Origin: Eledone cirrhosa | Taxonomy: Eukaryota | Length of the DNA stretch: 64,000 nucleotides | Assembly (NCBI GenBank): GCA_964016885.1 | Contig: CAXHJY010000651.1 | Span: forward strand, 1 to 64,000 | Direction: 5' to 3' | Shown here: piece after piece, positions 5,860 through 43,386 of the stretch | How the letters are laid out: each line of letters starts with the position of its first letter | Numbering within the stretch: the stretch's first letter is position 1 | Made by a program: the position numbers and the translations under genes | Notes under the pieces: model-generated | Seen by the model: only the letters and a program-made list of their open reading frames with translations | What the model was told of the DNA's origin: nothing | The model's database searches: none

Positions 5860-6048
5860 CGAACGCCATGCTTTGGCGCATTGAGTTACGGCCCTTGCCA
5901 TTCTGAGTTCAAATCCCGCCGAGGTTAACTTTGCCTTTTATCGTTACGGGGTCGATAAAATAAAGTACCAGTCACGCACTGGGGTCGATTTAATCGACTT
6001 TCCCCTCCACCGAAATTGCTGGCCTTGTGCCTATATAAGAAACCATTA
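5860..6048 (+). mobile_element. tRNA-head SINE (dominant family)
   Basis: B box gagttcaaatcc, body gaggttaactttgcc...gtcgataaaataaagtaccagt, tail gctggccttgtgcc...agaaaccatt. Confidence 0.85.
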
Positions 6049-6060
6049 TATTGTACTCTT

Positions 6061-6240
6061 TGGCAGTATCGGTAGAGGGTCGGACGCCATGCTTTGCAGC
6101 AGAGTTACCACCCTTTATGATCTGAGTTCAAATCCCGCCGAGGTTAACTTTGCCTTCCATCCTTACGGGGTCGATAACATAAAGTACCAGTAATACACTG
6201 GGATAATTGCTGGCCTTGTGCCAAAAGTAGAAACAATTAT
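6061..6240 (+). mobile_element. tRNA-head SINE (dominant family)
   Basis: A box tggcagtatcgg, B box gagttcaaatcc, same body and tail. Confidence 0.9.
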
Positions 6241-6351
6241 ATTTTACTATTTCTTATTTTTTCAGTCTCTTTCTCACTCTAATATATTCTTTCTTTCTCT
6301 CTCAATATTCTCTATTTCTCTTTCTTTACAAATCATGTTGTTGTTGTTGTT

Positions 6352-6434
<83 letters not shown>

Positions 6435-6711
6435 TGTGTGTGTGTGTGTGCGTGTGTGTGATTGCATACCTTAATATACGTTTGCCAGACTTTGTTACTG
6501 TATTCGTGTATGTATGTGTGTATGTATGTGTGTGTGTGTGTGTCTGTGTATCTGTGTGTGTGTGTGTGTACGTGTGTCTGTGTGTGTGTGTGTACGTGTG
6601 TCTGTGTGTGTGTGAGTGACTGCATGCATTTATATAGGTTTGCCAGAGTTTGTTACTGTATTCGTGTATGTGTGTGTATGTATATGTATGTGTGTATGTA
6701 TATGTATGTGT

Positions 6712-9734: not shown

Positions 9735-10040
9735 AGTTGGCATTTGTACCAAGAAGTTTCCGCTCCGAAGCACAAGGAGATGGAAGGTGTTTTCGTGGAA
9801 GATCAGCAAGTGCTCACGCATGCCAGTCTCCTTTCTCCATACCACCGTTGTTGTCCAAGGGAAAGGCAAGAGCCGATACAGCTTGGCACCAGTCAAATCG
9901 CAAATCATTTCTTTAGTTGAGTGAACTAAAGCAACGTGAAATAAAGTCTTACTCAAGGACGCAGTGCACCGCCAGCTTCGGGAATCGAACTCACAGCCTC
10001 ATGATTATGAATCCAATGCTCTAACTACTAAGCTACGAAC
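9735..10040 (-). mobile_element. CORE-type SINE with a distinct 3' tail
   Basis: Reverse strand has tagcttagtagttagagc, gagttcgattccc, gtccttgagtaagactttatttcacgttgc; tail-like pieces recur at ~255-400 and ~50075-50180. Confidence 0.7.
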
Positions 10041-10919
10041 CTATAAATACATACACACTCACTCATACACAAGCACACACTCACGCACACCCACTCACAA
10101 AACAAACAAACATACACTCATATATATTCGACGGGCTTCTGTACAATTTCTGTCTACTAAACTTCATTCACAAAGCATAGGTCAATCCATTAAAAAAGAA
10201 TGGTTTGGCCCTTTTGAGGGTTTTCAATGTCAGCTATTTCCTTTAACTCAATTCTGTTGTTCTTGTTTTGTTGTTGTTTTTATCACGCACATACATACAC
10301 AGTCATATGTAGAGGTGGGAAGGAAAGAGAAAGAAGGGAAGGAATGAAAGAGAGAGACACAGAGAGAAATAGAGGGCTTGTGTGAGAGAGAGAAAGTAAG
10401 TGAGAGAGAGTGAGTGAGAAAGAGAGTGAGAGAGAGAAAGGGAGAAAGAGAGAGAAAGAGAGAAAGAGAGAGTGGGAGAGAGAGAGAGAGAGTGTGTGTG
10501 TGAGAGAGAATCATATACTGTAGTTTTTTTTAAAGCACACGCTAGGAGGTTGTGATCGCATCAAATTCTAATTGTAGCGAAGTTACTGTCAACACAGAGT
10601 TCCTTTGTCACGTTGTTGTCATTGTTGTTGTTATTGCCATTTTTTTTTTTCATTTGTGCTTTTGTTTTTGTTGTTGTTGTTGTTGTTTGAAGGGAGTTTA
10701 CTTGCTTCTTTACTTTTTTCTTTTTCCTTTTTATTATTTATTTTTATTTATTTATTTGTTTGTTTGTTTGTTTATTGTTCTCTGGTTGTTCTAATATTTA
10801 AAAGTGACTTGTGTGAAATGGAGATGGATGGATTACTGAAACGGAACACTGACTTTTCAACAACATTAAGAAGACTAACACTAATAAAACAACACAAACA
10901 ACACAAACACTGAGACACA

Positions 10920-20837: not shown

Positions 20838-20841
<4 letters not shown>

Positions 20842-21030
20842 AGAAAAGAGTCATGACCCCGACGGCTGTGCTCCGGTCGTTTCGACATCTACATCCGGAT
20901 CTAGCTGTCGAAACCGCCGGAGCTCAGCCGTCGGCGTCCAGGCTCTTTTCTTATTAATCACTCTACTACAATAAGTATCGAGTACTCTGGTGCGTTTTGG
21001 TCCACCTGGTTTCTTATCACACTTTCGTTG

Positions 21031-21033
<3 letters not shown>
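20838..21033 (+). mobile_element. Hairpin-tail element copy 2 (partial copy also at 21917-21977; tail-only at 19479-19514)
   Basis: Same palindrome and tail in opposite orientation, flanked by (TA)n. Confidence 0.85.
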
Positions 21034-21102
<69 letters not shown>

Positions 21103-21105
<3 letters not shown>

Positions 21106-21668
21106 CAAGGGAGTGTAAATACAGAAAATATAGTAAAAATTAATAATAAATAATTAAATTCCAAAAAATTCACTGTACTTACTATATGTGCCCTTACCGC
21201 GGTTTCAGATCCCAAATAAAAAGACAATCCAAGTGGATTTCCATTAAGAAAGAGATCATCGTCAGAAGGCTTTTCTCTCTCGGAGAATATAAAATTGCCG
21301 AGTTCAAATTACAAACTAGCGCCATACCAAACTGCCTCAGAATGAATCAGTTATGGTTAGGAACGCGTGCAAAGGCGAAAGCATGTTGAAAAGGTCAATC
21401 TAATGCTACTAAAAATAGCAGCTATACGAACGACCAAAGGTGTCTCTACCATTGGGGAGAAGAAGAATAAAAGTATGTGTTCTATATGTAAGTAATACAT
21501 ACAGGGATACAAGTATAGTTCGTAGGCTAGTGAGGTTCAATAGCAAGTTAATAAATTAACAAGCCAGAAAATATAAAATCAAGGGAGTGTAAACACAGAA
21601 AATATCTTAAAAAATAATAATAAATAATTAAATTCAAAAAATTCACTGTACTTACTATATGTGCCCTT
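21103..21668 (-). mobile_element. Retrozyme/PLE-like partial tandem element, 473 bp period, with intact HHR at 21190-21270
   Basis: 21103-21195 is directly repeated at 21577-21668; minus strand gcctt-CTGACGA-tgatc...gatct-GAAA-C-cgcg-GTA-agggc; (TA)n on both sides. Confidence 0.8.
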
Positions 21669-21815
21669 TATTATATATATATATATATATATATAAGATA
21701 CTTCACGGTGCTCATTCTACCTGGAGTTGCGACCGATAGATAGTATTAGCAATTGGAAAGACCAATGGAAACATTGTTTCCTCGGTCCGATTTGACGAAA
21801 GTCGATCGACTGTCG

Positions 21816-21901
<86 letters not shown>

Positions 21902-21977
21902 ATGTATGTATATATATAGGAAAAGAGTCAGGACCCCGACGGCTGAGCTCCGGCCGTTTCGACAGCTAGATCCGAAC

Positions 21978-25175: not shown

Positions 25176-26149
25176 GCTGCACCAAAACTAACACTACCTC
25201 CATCACCACCACCAACACCACCAGTCCACTACAGCCAACACTACCTCCAATTCCGCTACCAACACCACCGCTGCACCAAAACCAACACTACCTCCATCAC
25301 CAGCACCAACACCACCACTCCACTACAGCCAACACTACCTCCAATTCCGCTACCAACACCACCGCTGCACAAAAACCAACACTACCTCCATCACCACCAC
25401 CAACACCACCACCACCACCAACACTACCAGCATTAGCCAATACTCCTCCACAACCACCACACTACCAAAACCGACAATACTAACACTAAAACTGCCAACG
25501 CTACAACCAAAACTACCACTATCACTACCACTATCACAACCACTATCACTACCACTATCACCACCACTACCAGCACAACCAACACTACCACCACCACTAA
25601 CAAGACAACCAACATTATCACTACACTACAACCCACACTACCACCACAACCAACACTACAACAAAAACAACACTACCACCACAACCAACACTACAACAAA
25701 AACAACACTACCACCACAACCAACACTACAACAAAAAACAACACTACCACAACAACCCACACAACCACCACAACCAACATTATCCCTACACTACAACCCA
25801 CACTACCACCACAACCAACACTACAACAAAAAACAACGCTACCACCACAAACAACACTACTACCACAACCAACACTACCACCACAACCAACACTACCACC
25901 ACAACCAACACTACTACTACAACCAACACTACCACCACAACCAACACTACCACTACAACCAACACTACCACCACAACCAACACTACCACCACAACCAACT
26001 CTACCACCACAACCAACTCTACTCCATCCCTGACTCCAACACCATCACCACAACTGACTCTACCACCACCAAGACTAACATCAAAACCACCACCACAATC
26101 GCCACTACCACCGACACACACACACACACCACCACTACCAACAATACTA

Positions 26150-29100
26150 CTACAACCACTACCATCACCAATACCACCACAACCGCCACTACCACCAACA
26201 CCCACACCACTACCATCACCAATATCCACCACAACCGCCACTACCACCAACACCCGCACCACTACCATCACCAATACCACCACAACCGCCACTACCACCA
26301 ACACCCACAACCACTACCATCACCAATACCACCACAACAACCACTACCACCAACACCCACACCACTACCATCACCAATACCACCACAACCGCCACTACCA
26401 CCAACACCCACAACCACTACCATCACCACTACCACCACAACCGCCACTACCACCAACACCCACAACCACTACCAGCACCAATACCACCACAAACGCCACT
26501 ACCACCAACACGCACAACCACTACCATCACCAATACCACCACAACCGCCACTACCACCAACACCCACACCACTACCATCACCAATACCACCACAACCGCC
26601 ACTACCACCAACACCCACACCACTACCAACACCAATACCACCACAACCGCCACTACCACCAACACGCACAACCACTACCATCACCAATACCAGCACAACC
26701 GCCACTACCACCAACACCCACACCACTACCATCACCAATACCACCACAACCGCCACTACCACCAACACCCACACCACTACCAACACCAATACCACCACAA
26801 CCGCCACTACCACCAACACGCACAACCACTACCATCACCAATACCACCACAACCGCCACTACCACCAACACCCACAACCACTACCATCACCAATACCACC
26901 ACAACCGCCACTACCACCAGCACCCACAACCACTACCATCACCAATACCACCACAACCGCCACTACCACCAACACCCACAACCACTACCATCACCAATAC
27001 CACCACAACTGCCACTACCACCAACACCCACAACCACTACCATCACCAATACCACCACAACCGCCACTACCACCAACACCCACAACCACTACCATCACCA
27101 ATACCACCACAACCGCCACTACCACCAACACCCACAACCACTACCATCACCAATACCACCACAACTGCCACTACCACCAACACCCACAACCACTACCATC
27201 ACCAATACCACCACAACCGCCACTACCACCAACACCCACACCACTACCAACACCAATACCACCACAACCGCCACTACCACCAACACGCACAACCACTACC
27301 ATCACCAATACCAGCACAACCGCCACTACCACCAACACCCACAACCACTACCAGCACCAATACCACCACAACCGCCACTACCACCAACACCCAGAACCAC
27401 TACCATCACCAATACCACCACAACCGCCACTACCACCAACACCCACAACCACTACCATCACCAATACCACCACAACAACCACTACCACCAACACCCACAC
27501 CACTACCATCACCAATACCACCACAACCGCCACTACCACCAACACCCACAACCACTACCATCACCAATACCACCACAACCGCCACTACCACCAACACCCA
27601 CAACCACTACCATCACCAATACCACCACAACCGCCACTACCACCAACACCCACACCACTACCATCACCAATACCACCACAACCGCCACTACCACCAACAC
27701 CCACAACCACTACCATCACCAATACCACCACAACCGCCACTACCACCAACACCCACAACCACTACCATCACCAATACCACCACAACCGCCACTACCACCA
27801 ACACCCACACCACTACCATCACCAATACCACCACAACCGCCACTACCACCAACACCCACAACCACTACCATCACCAATACCACCACAACCGCCACTACCA
27901 CCAACACCCACAACCACTACCATCACCAATACCACCACAACTGCCACTACCACCAACACCCACAACCACTACCATCACCAATACCACCACAACCGCCACT
28001 ACCACCAACACCCACAGCCACTACCATCACCAATACCACCACAACCGCCACTACCACCAACACCCACAACCACTACCATCACCAATACCACCACAACTGC
28101 CACTACCACCAACACGCACAACCACTACCATCACCAATACCACCACAACCGCCACTACCACCAACACCCACACCACTACCATCACCAATACCACCACAAC
28201 CGCCACTACCACCAACACCCACAACTACTACCATCACCAATACCACCACAACCGCCACTACCACCAACACCCACAACCACTACCATCACCAATACCACCA
28301 CAACCGCCACTACCACCAACACCCACAACCACTACCATCACCAATACCAGCACAACCGCCACTACCACCAACACCCACAACCACTACCAGCACCAATACC
28401 ACCACAACCGCCACTACCACCAACACCCAGAACCACTACCATCACCAATACCACCACAACCGCCACTACCACCAACACCCACAACCACTACCATCACCAA
28501 TACCACCACAACAACCACTACCACCAACACCCACACCACTACCATCACCAATACCACCACAACCGCCACTACCACCAACACCCACAACCACTACCATCAC
28601 CAATACCACCACAACCGCCACTACCACCAACACCCACACCACTACCATCACCAATACCACCACAACCGCCACTACCACCAACACCCACAACCACTACCAT
28701 CACCAATACCACCACAACCGCCACTACCACCAACACCCACAACTACTACCATCACCAATACCACCACAACCGCCACTACCACCAACACGCACAACCACTA
28801 CCATCACCAATACCACCACAACCGCCACTACCACCAGCACCCACAACCACTACCATCACCAATACCACCACAACCGCCACTACCACCAACACCCACAACC
28901 ACTACCATCACCAATACCACCACAACTGCCACTACCACCAACACCCACAACCACTACCATCACCACTACCCACCACAACCGCCACTACCACCAACACCCA
29001 CAACCACTACCATCACCAATACCACCACAACTGCCACTACCACCCAACACCCACAACCACTACCATCACCACTACCACCACAACCGCCACTACCACCAAC

Positions 29101-30842
29101 ACCCACAACCACTACCATCACCAATACCACCACAACTGCCACTACCACCAACACCCACAACCACTACCATCACCACTACCACCACAACCGCCACTACCAC
29201 CAACACCCACACCACTACCATCACCAATACCACCACAACCGCCTCTACCACCAACACCCACAACCACTACCATCACCACTACCACCACAACCGCCACTAC
29301 CACCAACACCCACACCACTACCATCACCATACCACCACAACCGCCACTACCACCAACACCCACAACCACTACCATCACCAATACCACCACAACCGCCACT
29401 ACCACAACACCCACAACCACTACCATCACCAATACCACCACAACCGCCACTACCACCAACACCCACAACCACTACCATCACCAATACCACCACAACCGCC
29501 ACTACCACCAACACCCACAACCACTACCATCACCAATACCACCACAACCGCCACTACCACCAACACCCACAACCACTACCATCACCAATACCACCACAAC
29601 TGCCACTACCACCAACACCCACAACCACTACCATCACCACTACCACCACGACCGCCACTAACCACCAACACCCACAACCACTACCATCACCAATACCACC
29701 ACAACTGCCACTACCACCAACACCCACAACCACTACCATCACCACTACCACCACAACCGCCACTACCACCAACACCCACAACCACTACCATCACCAATAC
29801 CACCACAACTGCCACTACCACCAACACCCACAACCACTACCATCACCACTACCACCACAACCGCCACTACCACCAACACCCACAACCACTACCATCACCA
29901 ATACCACCACAACCGCCACTACCACCAGCACCCACAACCACTACCATCACCACTACCACCACAACCGCCACTACCACCAACACCCACACCACTACCATCA
30001 CCAATACCACCACAACAACCACTACCACCAACACCCACACCACTACCATCACCAATACCACCACAACCGCCACTACCACCAACACGCACAACCACTACCA
30101 TCACCAATACCACCACAACCGCCACTACCACCAACACCCACAACCACTACCATCACCAATACCACCACAACCGCCACTACCACCAACACCCACAACCACT
30201 ACCATCACCACTACCACCACAACCGCCACTACCACCAACACCCACACCACTACCATCACCAATACCACCACAACCGCCACTACCACCAAACACCCACAAC
30301 CACTACCATCACCAATACCACCACAAACCGCCACTACCACCAACACCCACAACTACTACCATCACCAATACCACCACAACCGCCACTACCACCAACACGC
30401 ACAACCACTACCATCACCAATACCACCACAACCGCCACTACCACCAGCACCCACAACCACTACCATCACCAATACCACCACAACCGCCACTACCACCCAA
30501 CACCCACAACCACTACCATCACCAATACCACCACAACTGCCACTACCACCAACACCCACAACCACTACCATCACCACTACCACCACAACCGCCACTACCA
30601 CCAACACCCACAACCACTACCATCACCAATACCACCACAACTGCCACTACCACCAACACGCACAACCACTACCATCACCAATACCACCACAACCGCCACT
30701 ACCACCAACACGCACAACCACTTACCATCACCAATACCACCACAACCGCCACTACCACCAGCACCCACAACCACTACCATCACCACTACCACCACAACCG
30801 CCACTACCACCAACACCCACACCACTACCATCACCAATATCC
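26150..30842. repeat. ~4.7 kb minisatellite, 52/51 bp unit, ~90 copies
   Basis: accactaccatcaccaataccaccacaaccgccactaccaccaacacccaca with recurrent single-base variants. Confidence 0.97.
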
Positions 30843-42490: not shown

Positions 42491-43343
42491 TGCATACCTA
42501 TGCTAGCAAATATATAGGTTTTGTCTTAGTAACTTTGTGGTTCAATGCAAGGGGATGCAGAACAATTATATGAAAGACGTAAAATAAGAAAATTATAAAA
42601 ATTAACTGACTAAAATTTCACTCCAACTAATTAGTTTCTGAAAGGGAATAAACATGGTTTTCCGAATGGAACATGGAGAATACCTTTCGTCATCAGGAAG
42701 TCAATTCTCAGATAAGTTCCCAGGCGATGCGTGGACACAGGGAACTTATACAAAACCTATATATTTGCTAGCATAGGTATGCATCTGTATATATATGTTG
42801 GTAGATATACTAATTCTTTATAATTACCTCCAAATTATTTTGTTGAGCAAAAATTTGCCAAAACTACTACTATAGTTCATAGTAATAGTCCGGCTACTGT
42901 CTTCTTAACACCCCACTCCTCACTGATTAACCTCGATGTCACGTGATTGATTCTTTTGAATTTGCCACCGACCAAGTAGGGAGTGATTTTTTCAATGTCT
43001 TGGAATTTAGTCCTCGCTTGCTTTTTTCCATCCACTGAATTATTTTTGTATAAGTTCCCTGTGTCCACGCATCGCCTGGGAACTTAGCTGAGAATTGACT
43101 TCCTGATGACGAAAGGTATTCTCCATGTTCCATTCGGAAATCATGTTTATTCCCTTTTAGAAACTAATTAGTTGGAGTGAAATTTTAGTAAGTAAGTTTA
43201 TTTTCATAATTTTCTTATTTTACGTCTTTCATATTATTGTTCTGCATCCCCTTGCATTGAACCACAAAGTTACTAAGACAAAACCTATATATTTGCTAGC
43301 ATAGGTATGCATCTGTATATATATGTTGGTAGATATACTAATT

Positions 43344-43348
<5 letters not shown>
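42486..43348 (+). mobile_element. PLE/retrozyme-like element: 5' inverted segment plus partial tandem (528 bp period), HHR at 43098-43178 and mirror at 42620-42701
   Basis: 42486-42755 is inverted against ~43045-43315; 42751-42820 is directly repeated at 43279-43348; acttc-CTGATGA-cgaaagg...cctttta-GAAA-ctaattag-TT-ggagt. Confidence 0.8.

Positions 43349-43386
<38 letters not shown>

What the first reader, a model, noticed from the sequence alone, without database searches (positions are those of the whole stretch)
21103..21668. 473-nt partial-tandem element whose end coincides with its own hammerhead cleavage site
Seen: on the minus strand the insert starts at ~21667 with agggcacatatag..., runs 473 nt, passes through a full HHR (gcctt-CTGACGA...GAAA-C-cgcg-GTA/agggc, 21270-21190) and repeats its first ~93 nt. 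The right-hand repeat stops at gtgccct(t), within 1 nt of the predicted GUA cut, then (TA)n begins. Inference: the copied RNA had a ribozyme-generated 5' end and was an oligomeric or circular template, a genomic fossil of in vivo self-cleavage in a non-coding mobile RNA.
Basis: partly seen in the sequence, partly recalled or inferred. Interest (0 to 1): 0.85.

Follow-up and report, generated by a model that had tools for sequence, protein, structure and literature searches.

The report
Hammerhead retrozyme riding Penelope-like transposons
This is one of hundreds of copies of a 473-base non-coding repeat carrying a predicted self-cutting hammerhead RNA motif, likely pasted into TA repeats by Penelope-like retrotransposons, and because copy ends across the genome scatter rather than pile up at the predicted cut, this copy's end there is likely coincidence rather than a record of cutting.

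Summary
In detail: minus-strand insert 21667-21103, 473-nt period, about 92-nt repeat at 94.6%, one complete type I hammerhead, 5' end within 1 nt of the predicted cut. It belongs to a family with 646 exact anchor matches in this 3.0-Gb genome, plus a sister family. Hammerhead helices covary, and two copies cofold as a double hammerhead. Copies bear Penelope-like (PLE) marks: two fixed 3' termini into microsatellites, scattered 5' truncation and inverted arms (48 of 100). So it is an animal non-LTR retrozyme / non-autonomous PLE, a known kind.

The 'cleavage fossil' reading largely fails its own test. Genome-wide, 12 other ends lie within +4..-3 of the cut against 24 in -4..-16 (flat). Only longer-than-unit copies show an excess (7 of 42, 2.8 expected, p about 0.02). 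A pre-specified replicate in the sister family did not confirm it (3 of 30, p=0.34). Seven of these 10 keep 2-3 bases upstream of the scissile bond. I give about 25% that this end was ribozyme-made. No RNA data were available. The scan noted similar hammerhead/PLE elements on other genomes, none with this sequence.

The parts
21103..21667 (-). Whole insertion: 1.2 units of a 473-nt non-coding hammerhead repeat (family A)
21195..21667 (-). One complete cut-to-cut unit, 473 nt, 35% GC, longest stop-free frame 77 aa, folds below shuffles as a circle (z=-3.9)
21190..21270 (-). Type I hammerhead: helix I GCCUU/AGGGC, core CUGACGA and GAAA, helix II GAUCUC/GGGAUC preceded by U.U with an inner hairpin, 2-bp helix III, GUA triplet; predicted cut between 21195 and 21194
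21196..21203 (-). Palindrome ACCGCGGU (helix III/loop 3), predicted to form the 8-bp intermolecular helix of a double hammerhead
   Evidence: cofold MFE is the double-hammerhead fold, -50.5 vs -41.0 kcal/mol
21103..21194 (-). 3' repeat, ending at the family's first fixed 3' terminus (tail 1; inferred reverse-transcription start)
21577..21667 (-). 5' repeat, starting at position 0/-1 of the predicted cut; holds only the 3' strand of helix I
21466..21477 (-). Second fixed 3'-terminus site of the family (tail 2), internal and unused in this copy
   Evidence: (other copies end at query position 203)
21032..21103 (.). (TA)n target, downstream side
21670..21697 (.). (TA)n target, upstream side, joined through a short ATA/ATAA filler

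Best explanation
This is a 1.2-unit copy of a non-coding hammerhead repeat family whose copies end at two fixed 3' sites in TA repeats and at scattered 5' sites, and it was likely pasted in by a Penelope-like retrotransposon's enzymes copying an RNA that was intact at its hammerhead sites, the end at the predicted cut likely being one of the scattered stops. Shown: family size, end distributions, inverted arms, microsatellite targets, helix covariation, and abundant RT plus GIY-YIG PLEs in the genome with a similar cut-to-terminus layout. Inferred: the PLE endonuclease nicks (TA)n; the RT starts internally at one of two sites about 80-95 or 190-205 nt downstream of the hammerhead; it reads through uncut or re-ligated hammerheads and stops stochastically, with sequence-dependent hot spots; often a second cDNA on the other strand gives an inverted arm. 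Predicted only: that the ribozyme cuts as a dimer in two-hammerhead transcripts.
For: 646 anchors; 2124 candidate loci in the first DNA search. Of 91 of 100 unbiased anchors with a nearby 3' end, 46 end at tail 1 and 27 at tail 2, and 64 of those 73 directly abut a microsatellite. This matches the two RT start sites and 'tail' of PLEs (PMC11167929, parts 1-2 read). The 5' junctions of the 100 anchors: 48 inverted, 22 microsatellite, 21 same-strand jump or deletion, 9 other, as described for PLEs (PMC8557442, passages). 5' ends spread over the unit at about 0.4%/nt, with no family-wide peak at the cut (12 vs 24). 35 of 42 family-A and 27 of 30 family-B longer-than-unit copies read through both hammerheads. 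The genome has 10596 GIY-YIG candidates. A PLE with an 844-938-aa RT plus GIY-YIG frame has a hammerhead-like GAAAC-CG-GUA/AAGG followed by termini at about +76 and +141, and one locus (L188) joins a sister-family arm directly to that PLE's tail sequence. In vitro, a PLE used unprocessed RNA and no RNA-seq reads began at its cut (PMC11167929).
Against: A nominal excess of ends near the second cut exists: family A 7 of 42 (p about 0.02), pooled 10 of 72 vs 4.8 expected (p about 0.02). Some ends are exactly cut-compatible (L119, L234/L337, L186, L122, L038). Seven small deletions have their downstream edge at -2..+2 (not tested against a formal null). No autonomous PLE with sequence homology to the unit was found among 40 GIY-YIG loci (alignment to the best candidate at shuffle level). 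There are no RNA data.
Confidence: 0.68

Rival explanations
1. First reader's model, refined. Transcripts with two hammerheads fold as a double hammerhead and are sometimes cut at the upstream site. The RT then runs off that 5'-OH end, and this copy is such a run-off. Single-hammerhead transcripts stay uncut, so the excess appears only in longer-than-unit copies.
For: The window end is at 0/-1. Truncation rate in +4..-3 is 2.2%/nt at the second hammerhead against 0.55%/nt at the first; 7 of 42. The double-hammerhead fold is the cofold minimum. Compatible junctions: L337 (0/+1), L317, L315, L371. PLE hammerheads are proposed to work as dimers (PMC4209133, passages).
Against: The pre-specified replicate in family B gave 3 of 30 vs 2.1 expected. 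Of 10 non-self near-cut ends in longer-than-unit copies, 7 keep TA or GTA from upstream of the scissile bond and only 1 is exactly at 0. In L346, L361 and L308 these bases are not supplied by the flank, so the RT most likely read past the site. A flat null is unfair because other 8-nt windows cluster more strongly (-190..-197: 5 of 12). Second-pass ends seen in other searches at -6, -10, -11, -12, -13, -15, -16 fill the gap next to the cut. Helix II opens with U.U, so activity is uncertain.
Confidence: 0.24
2. The template is the ligated monomer circle, copied by rolling-circle reverse transcription as proposed for animal retrozymes; ends fall wherever the RT drops off.
For: Read-through of intact hammerhead junctions is what a ligated circle would give. 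Units fold well as circles (z -2.3 to -5.7; linear folding was not compared). One array of about 20 units has a tail-1 terminus and (TA)n on both sides, with nearly uniform pairwise identity (mean 0.89). The model is published (PMC7229834, discussion read).
Against: Arms have a ceiling: of second-pass arms alive at -140, 23 of 25 end by -245 against 19 of 56 first-pass arms (Fisher p=7e-7; seen in both families). This fits a finite linear RNA or a processivity limit better than an endless template. In the array the last scored unit is the most divergent (0.85-0.88) and most inner units share private variants, which fits later local expansion. This model does not explain a stop at the cut. It is not exclusive of the best explanation.
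Confidence: 0.15
3. The partial tandem arose at DNA level (local duplication, then deletion in the TA tract), with no RNA step.
For: The two repeats differ at 5 of about 92 positions. (TA)n tracts are unstable.
Against: Hundreds of dispersed copies share the same 3' termini, inverted arms and conserved ribozyme helices. The 5% difference equals that between separate young copies (95%).
Confidence: 0.03

Closest known systems
Animal non-LTR retrozymes (Cervera and de la Pena 2020, PMC7229834; Li, Clavereau and Pollet 2026, bioRxiv 10.64898/2026.07.22.740005)
   Same: Non-coding, AT-rich (35% GC) repeat with one type I hammerhead per unit; found as partial units, dimers and one long array; unit length inside the 51-972 bp range of the preprint; proposed non-autonomous derivative of PLEs.
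   Different: Unit longer than the about 300-bp typical monomer. Mostly dispersed, truncated 0.3-1.7-unit arms, often inverted, rather than arrays. The window copy has only one complete hammerhead, so it fails the preprint's 'active' definition. Circular RNA and cleavage are not shown here.
Penelope-like elements with pLTR hammerheads (Cervera and de la Pena 2014, PMC4209133; Craig et al. 2021, PMC8557442; Frangieh et al. 2024, PMC11167929)
   Same: Partial tandems, inverted 5'-truncated arms, two alternative 3' termini, (TA)n targeting, hammerhead with a palindromic minimal helix III suited to dimers.
   Different: No RT or GIY-YIG frame. The two termini lie about 110 nt apart, not 30-40 bp. 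No autonomous parent with matching sequence was found among 40 loci. Helix II has an extra base on both sides (U.U before G-C), not only after position 9.

Membership tests
Type I hammerhead ribozyme | Conserved core C3-U4-G5-A6-N7-G8-A9, G12-A13-A14 and an NUH triplet | tested here: met
   CUGACGA, GAAA, GUA in the window; core columns invariant or at least 90% conserved, except variable N7, in 22 copies
Type I hammerhead ribozyme | Three helices, helix I open-ended, with compensatory changes | tested here: met
   90% of 418 cells paired, 7 of 19 pairs with changes on both sides, slid controls 21-57%. The 22 rows were hand-picked and related, and the structure was derived from the window copy
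Type I hammerhead ribozyme | Purine-pyrimidine pair 10.1-11.1 next to the core | tested here: inconclusive
   The window has U.U then G-C; U.U is the commonest state in family A (28 of 123 are U.U then G-C); family B has G-C
Type I hammerhead ribozyme | Self-cleavage | not testable with these tools
   Only a predicted dimer fold; Rfam gave no hammerhead hit
Animal non-LTR retrozyme | Short non-coding low-GC repeat unit with a type I hammerhead | tested here: met
   458-496-nt units, 35-37% GC, longest stop-free frames 67-116 aa in the 12 family-A units scanned
Animal non-LTR retrozyme | Tandem copies with at least two complete hammerheads | tested here: met
   Met for the family (47 two-anchor matches and an array of about 20 units); the window copy itself has one complete hammerhead
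Animal non-LTR retrozyme | Expression as linear and circular monomer RNA | not testable with these tools
   No RNA holder listed
Penelope-like element insertion signature | Partial tandem plus inverted 5'-truncated arm | tested here: met
   Window is a partial tandem; 48 of 100 anchors have an inverted junction
Penelope-like element insertion signature | Two alternative 3' termini ('tail') and an AT-rich or microsatellite target | tested here: met
   46 tail 1 and 27 tail 2 of 91; spacing about 110 nt rather than 30-40 bp
Autonomous Penelope-like element | RT plus GIY-YIG open reading frame | tested here: not met
   No such frame in the units
Non-autonomous derivative of a named PLE | Sequence homology to the pLTR of an autonomous element | tested here: inconclusive
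   None among 40 of 150 scored (10596 candidate) GIY-YIG loci; only the hammerhead core and layout are shared with the L277 family

The most novel reading that the evidence does not exclude
The ends of genomic copies record dimer-gated ribozyme cutting in the germ line: only RNAs carrying two hammerheads are cut, a Penelope-type RT runs off the cut 5' end, and this copy is one of those products. Copy-end censuses would then be a sequence-only readout of in vivo hammerhead activity and would tie animal retrozymes directly to PLE enzymes.
Probability: 0.2. Interest if true: 0.62.

Novelty: new member of a known kind. Interest (0 to 1): 0.3.

Why it matters
What mobilises animal retrozymes, and whether hammerhead cutting is part of the cycle, is still open. 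The papers read argue from co-occurrence, phylogeny and in vitro tests. This family adds genomic anatomy: its insertions carry PLE end signatures, and one is joined to a resident PLE's tail, which supports PLE mobilisation. The end census says most templates were intact at the hammerhead. A length ceiling near 1.6-1.7 units points to a finite linear RNA rather than routine rolling-circle copying. The striking single-copy coincidence is probably not informative by itself.

Tried and rejected
Rfam scans found no hammerhead, at gathering score over the window or at E up to 10 over 21050-21750. Monomer folding was uninformative (z=0.46). Two first versions of the end-mapping script over-extended and crashed and were replaced; there L038 was still over-extended and was set to 0 by eye. 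The search for an autonomous parent by BLASTN and TBLASTX against 40 GIY-YIG loci gave only low-complexity hits. A hand impression of a peak at the cut did not survive the local-background comparison.

Rows dropped before counts: one search listed 100 of 103 matches; 83 distinct rows were viewed in context, the unfetched ones showed an intact longer-loop variant in the printed match, and intact variants and 10 small-deletion rows were left out of the 12-vs-24 count, which was made by eye. One search gave 47 matches; 46 were analysed, and 3 array rows and the window copy were dropped. One search gave 31 matches, 30 analysed. The 100-anchor set is the first 100 of 299 matches (contigs C1-C3) and counts small internal deletions as ends.

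Paper searches 'octopus + retrozyme' and 'hammerhead ribozyme + Penelope + octopus' listed no description of this family. The host guess behind those terms is my recollection from genome size and repeat content and was not tested. Supplements were not read, and those of the bioRxiv preprint are closed; they may list related families.

Full report
Observation. The element lies on the minus strand from 21667 to 21103 between two (TA)n tracts. It has a 473-nt period; the first 92 nt recur at 94.6% identity. The hammerhead is as described: helix I GCCUU/AGGGC, CUGACGA, helix II GAUCUC/GGGAUC, GAAAC-CGCG-GUA, cut predicted between 21195 and 21194. At the 5' end position -1 matches the element and -2 does not, so the breakpoint is 0 or -1. 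Rfam does not recognise the motif.

Is the hammerhead real? In 22 hand-picked copies from several subfamilies and a sister family B (about 72% identical, 486-nt unit), the core is conserved, 90% of helix cells pair, and 7 of 19 pairs change on both sides; slid controls pair 21-57%. Helix III is the palindrome ACCGCGGU, and two window hammerheads cofold as a double hammerhead at -50.5 against -41.0 kcal/mol for two monomers. This matches the dimer-type hammerheads described for PLEs (PMC4209133, passages read). Helix II opens with U.U, a shared family state, so activity is unproven. The window copy has only one complete hammerhead.

The family. The window is contig C678 of a 3.0-Gb assembly. 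The element gave 2124 candidate loci, and a 22-nt anchor just downstream of the cut has 646 exact matches against 1 for the reversed control. I took the first 100 of 299 matches of a stricter anchor as a sample blind to what lies upstream. Nine read through downstream; of the other 91, 46 end at a site about 80-95 nt after the cut and 27 at a site about 190-205 nt after it, and 64 of these 73 abut a microsatellite. Their 5' junctions are 48 inverted arms, 22 microsatellite, 21 same-strand jumps or deletions and 9 other. Partial tandems, inverted truncated arms, a 'tail' and microsatellite bias are PLE marks (PMC8557442, passages), and the tail reflects two internal RT start sites (PMC11167929, parts 1-2). 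The units have no coding frame. The genome is rich in GIY-YIG elements. One PLE family (L276, L277 and relatives; RT plus C-terminal GIY-YIG with a CX4CxxC linker, which PMC8557442 gives for the Neptune and Nematis clades) has a hammerhead-like GAAAC-CG-GUA/AAGG and termini at about +76 and +141. It shares no sequence with family A beyond the core, but L188 joins a family-B arm directly to its tail. The carrier is therefore likely a PLE, not identified with certainty.

The key test: where do 5' ends fall? In the 100-anchor sample they spread over the whole unit at about 0.4%/nt; 4 of 91 first-pass arms end at 0..-3 against 2.4 expected. A genome-wide pattern built to list copies that break off near the cut gave 103 matches. 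After removing intact variants and 10 small deletions, 12 non-self ends lie in +4..-3 and 24 in -4..-16, which is flat (p=0.77). Two of them are exactly at 0 (L119, L234); L122 and L038 were seen outside that filter. Chance predicts 6-11 ends at 0/-1 among 646 anchors.

The window copy's own class, longer than one unit, was listed genome-wide (47 matches). Without the window copy and 3 array rows, 7 of 42 end within +4..-3 of the second cut against 2.8 expected (p about 0.02), and 35 read through. I fixed the window in advance (note) and repeated the test in family B: 3 of 30 against 2.1 (p=0.34); pooled 10 of 72 against 4.8 (p about 0.02). Three things weaken this. Other windows cluster more (5 of 12 at -190..-197), so a flat null is too lenient. 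Second-pass ends at -6 to -16 appear in other searches. And the 10 ends sit at +3, +2, 0, -2, -2, -2, -2, -3, -3, -3. A cut RNA cannot template bases upstream of the scissile bond. TA can come from a (TA)n flank, but in L346, L361 and L308 the flank does not supply those bases, which points to an RT that read past an intact site and stopped on entering the GC-rich helix III (inference). Seven small deletions with a downstream edge at -2..+2 (L038, L120, L123, L153, L178, L236, L237) could reflect jumps from a cut end or imprecise ligation, but were not tested against a null.

Template form. A circle explains read-through but not a stop at the second junction. This was found post hoc in family A and seen again in B. 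It fits a finite linear RNA starting 150-245 nt upstream of a hammerhead, as from an internal promoter (Penelope has one: PMC2377424, abstract only), or a processivity limit. One array of about 20 units (C1, L342-L343) could be a rolling-circle product, but its last scored unit is the most divergent and inner units share private variants, which fits later expansion.

Comparison with the literature. The family fits animal non-LTR retrozymes (PMC7229834: passages and discussion read), recently argued to be non-autonomous PLE derivatives (10.64898/2026.07.22.740005, parts 1-3 of 5 read; 1 of 9 tested dimers cleaved there). For an anole PLE, hammerhead cutting was not needed for insertion in vitro and no RNA-seq reads began at the cut (PMC11167929). 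My six answered paper searches listed no description of this family, and none of the parts I read gave a copy-end census for a retrozyme; subscription papers and supplements were not seen.

Verdict. A real, new member of a known kind. The best reading is PLE-driven insertion from RNA intact at the hammerhead, with this end a scattered stop (0.68). A ribozyme-made end for this copy remains possible (about 0.24). Interest 0.3.

Noticed in passing
G000 families A and B, longer-than-unit copies (L296-L341, L344-L373): Arms almost never extend more than about 245 nt upstream of the second hammerhead (23 of 25 stop), with a cluster at -190..-203 in A and -147..-213 in B; a candidate RNA 5' end or internal promoter, and a stronger signal than the cut site.
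   Followed up: partly
L342-L343 (G000:C1, about 176,443,900-176,453,350): Array of about 20 head-to-tail 486-nt units between (TA)n tracts, mean pairwise identity 0.89, ending at tail 1.
   Followed up: partly
L188:1339-1599: Family-B arm joined at its cut position (0/+1, with upstream look-alike bases) to the tail of the L277-type PLE: a possible template switch between the two RNAs.
   Followed up: partly
L277:1988-5800 (also L276, L281, L284, L285, L287): Young PLE family (94-97% identical 3' regions) with an RT plus GIY-YIG frame and a hammerhead-like motif whose core reads UUGAAAA, resembling the U3-A8 variant of PMC4209133.
   Followed up: partly
L277:about 6000-6501: A third hammerhead repeat (helix I GCUGU/ACAGC, CUGAAGA, GAAAC-CGUCG-GUA) in partial tandem, period roughly 470 nt.
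   Followed up: no
window 905/1023, 19885, 42696/43103, 48336, 56982, 61072: Other hammerhead-core-like motifs from a loose pattern; 905/1023 and 42696/43103 are inverted pairs, the latter with a clear inverted-arm structure at 42600-43350.
   Followed up: no
window 20840-21030 and 21918-21977: Another short repeated element with internal inversion between (TA)n tracts; related sequence flanks L188.
   Followed up: no
L024, L038, L067: The first 15 nt after the cut are duplicated in tandem through a GTA-A microhomology; L038 has two junctions at the cut position.
   Followed up: partly
window 9973-10042 (-): Weak tRNA match (32.2 bits) with a broken acceptor stem, possibly a tRNA-derived SINE head.
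   Followed up: no
window 26123-30839: 52-nt tandem array of about 91 copies at 95% identity.
   Followed up: no
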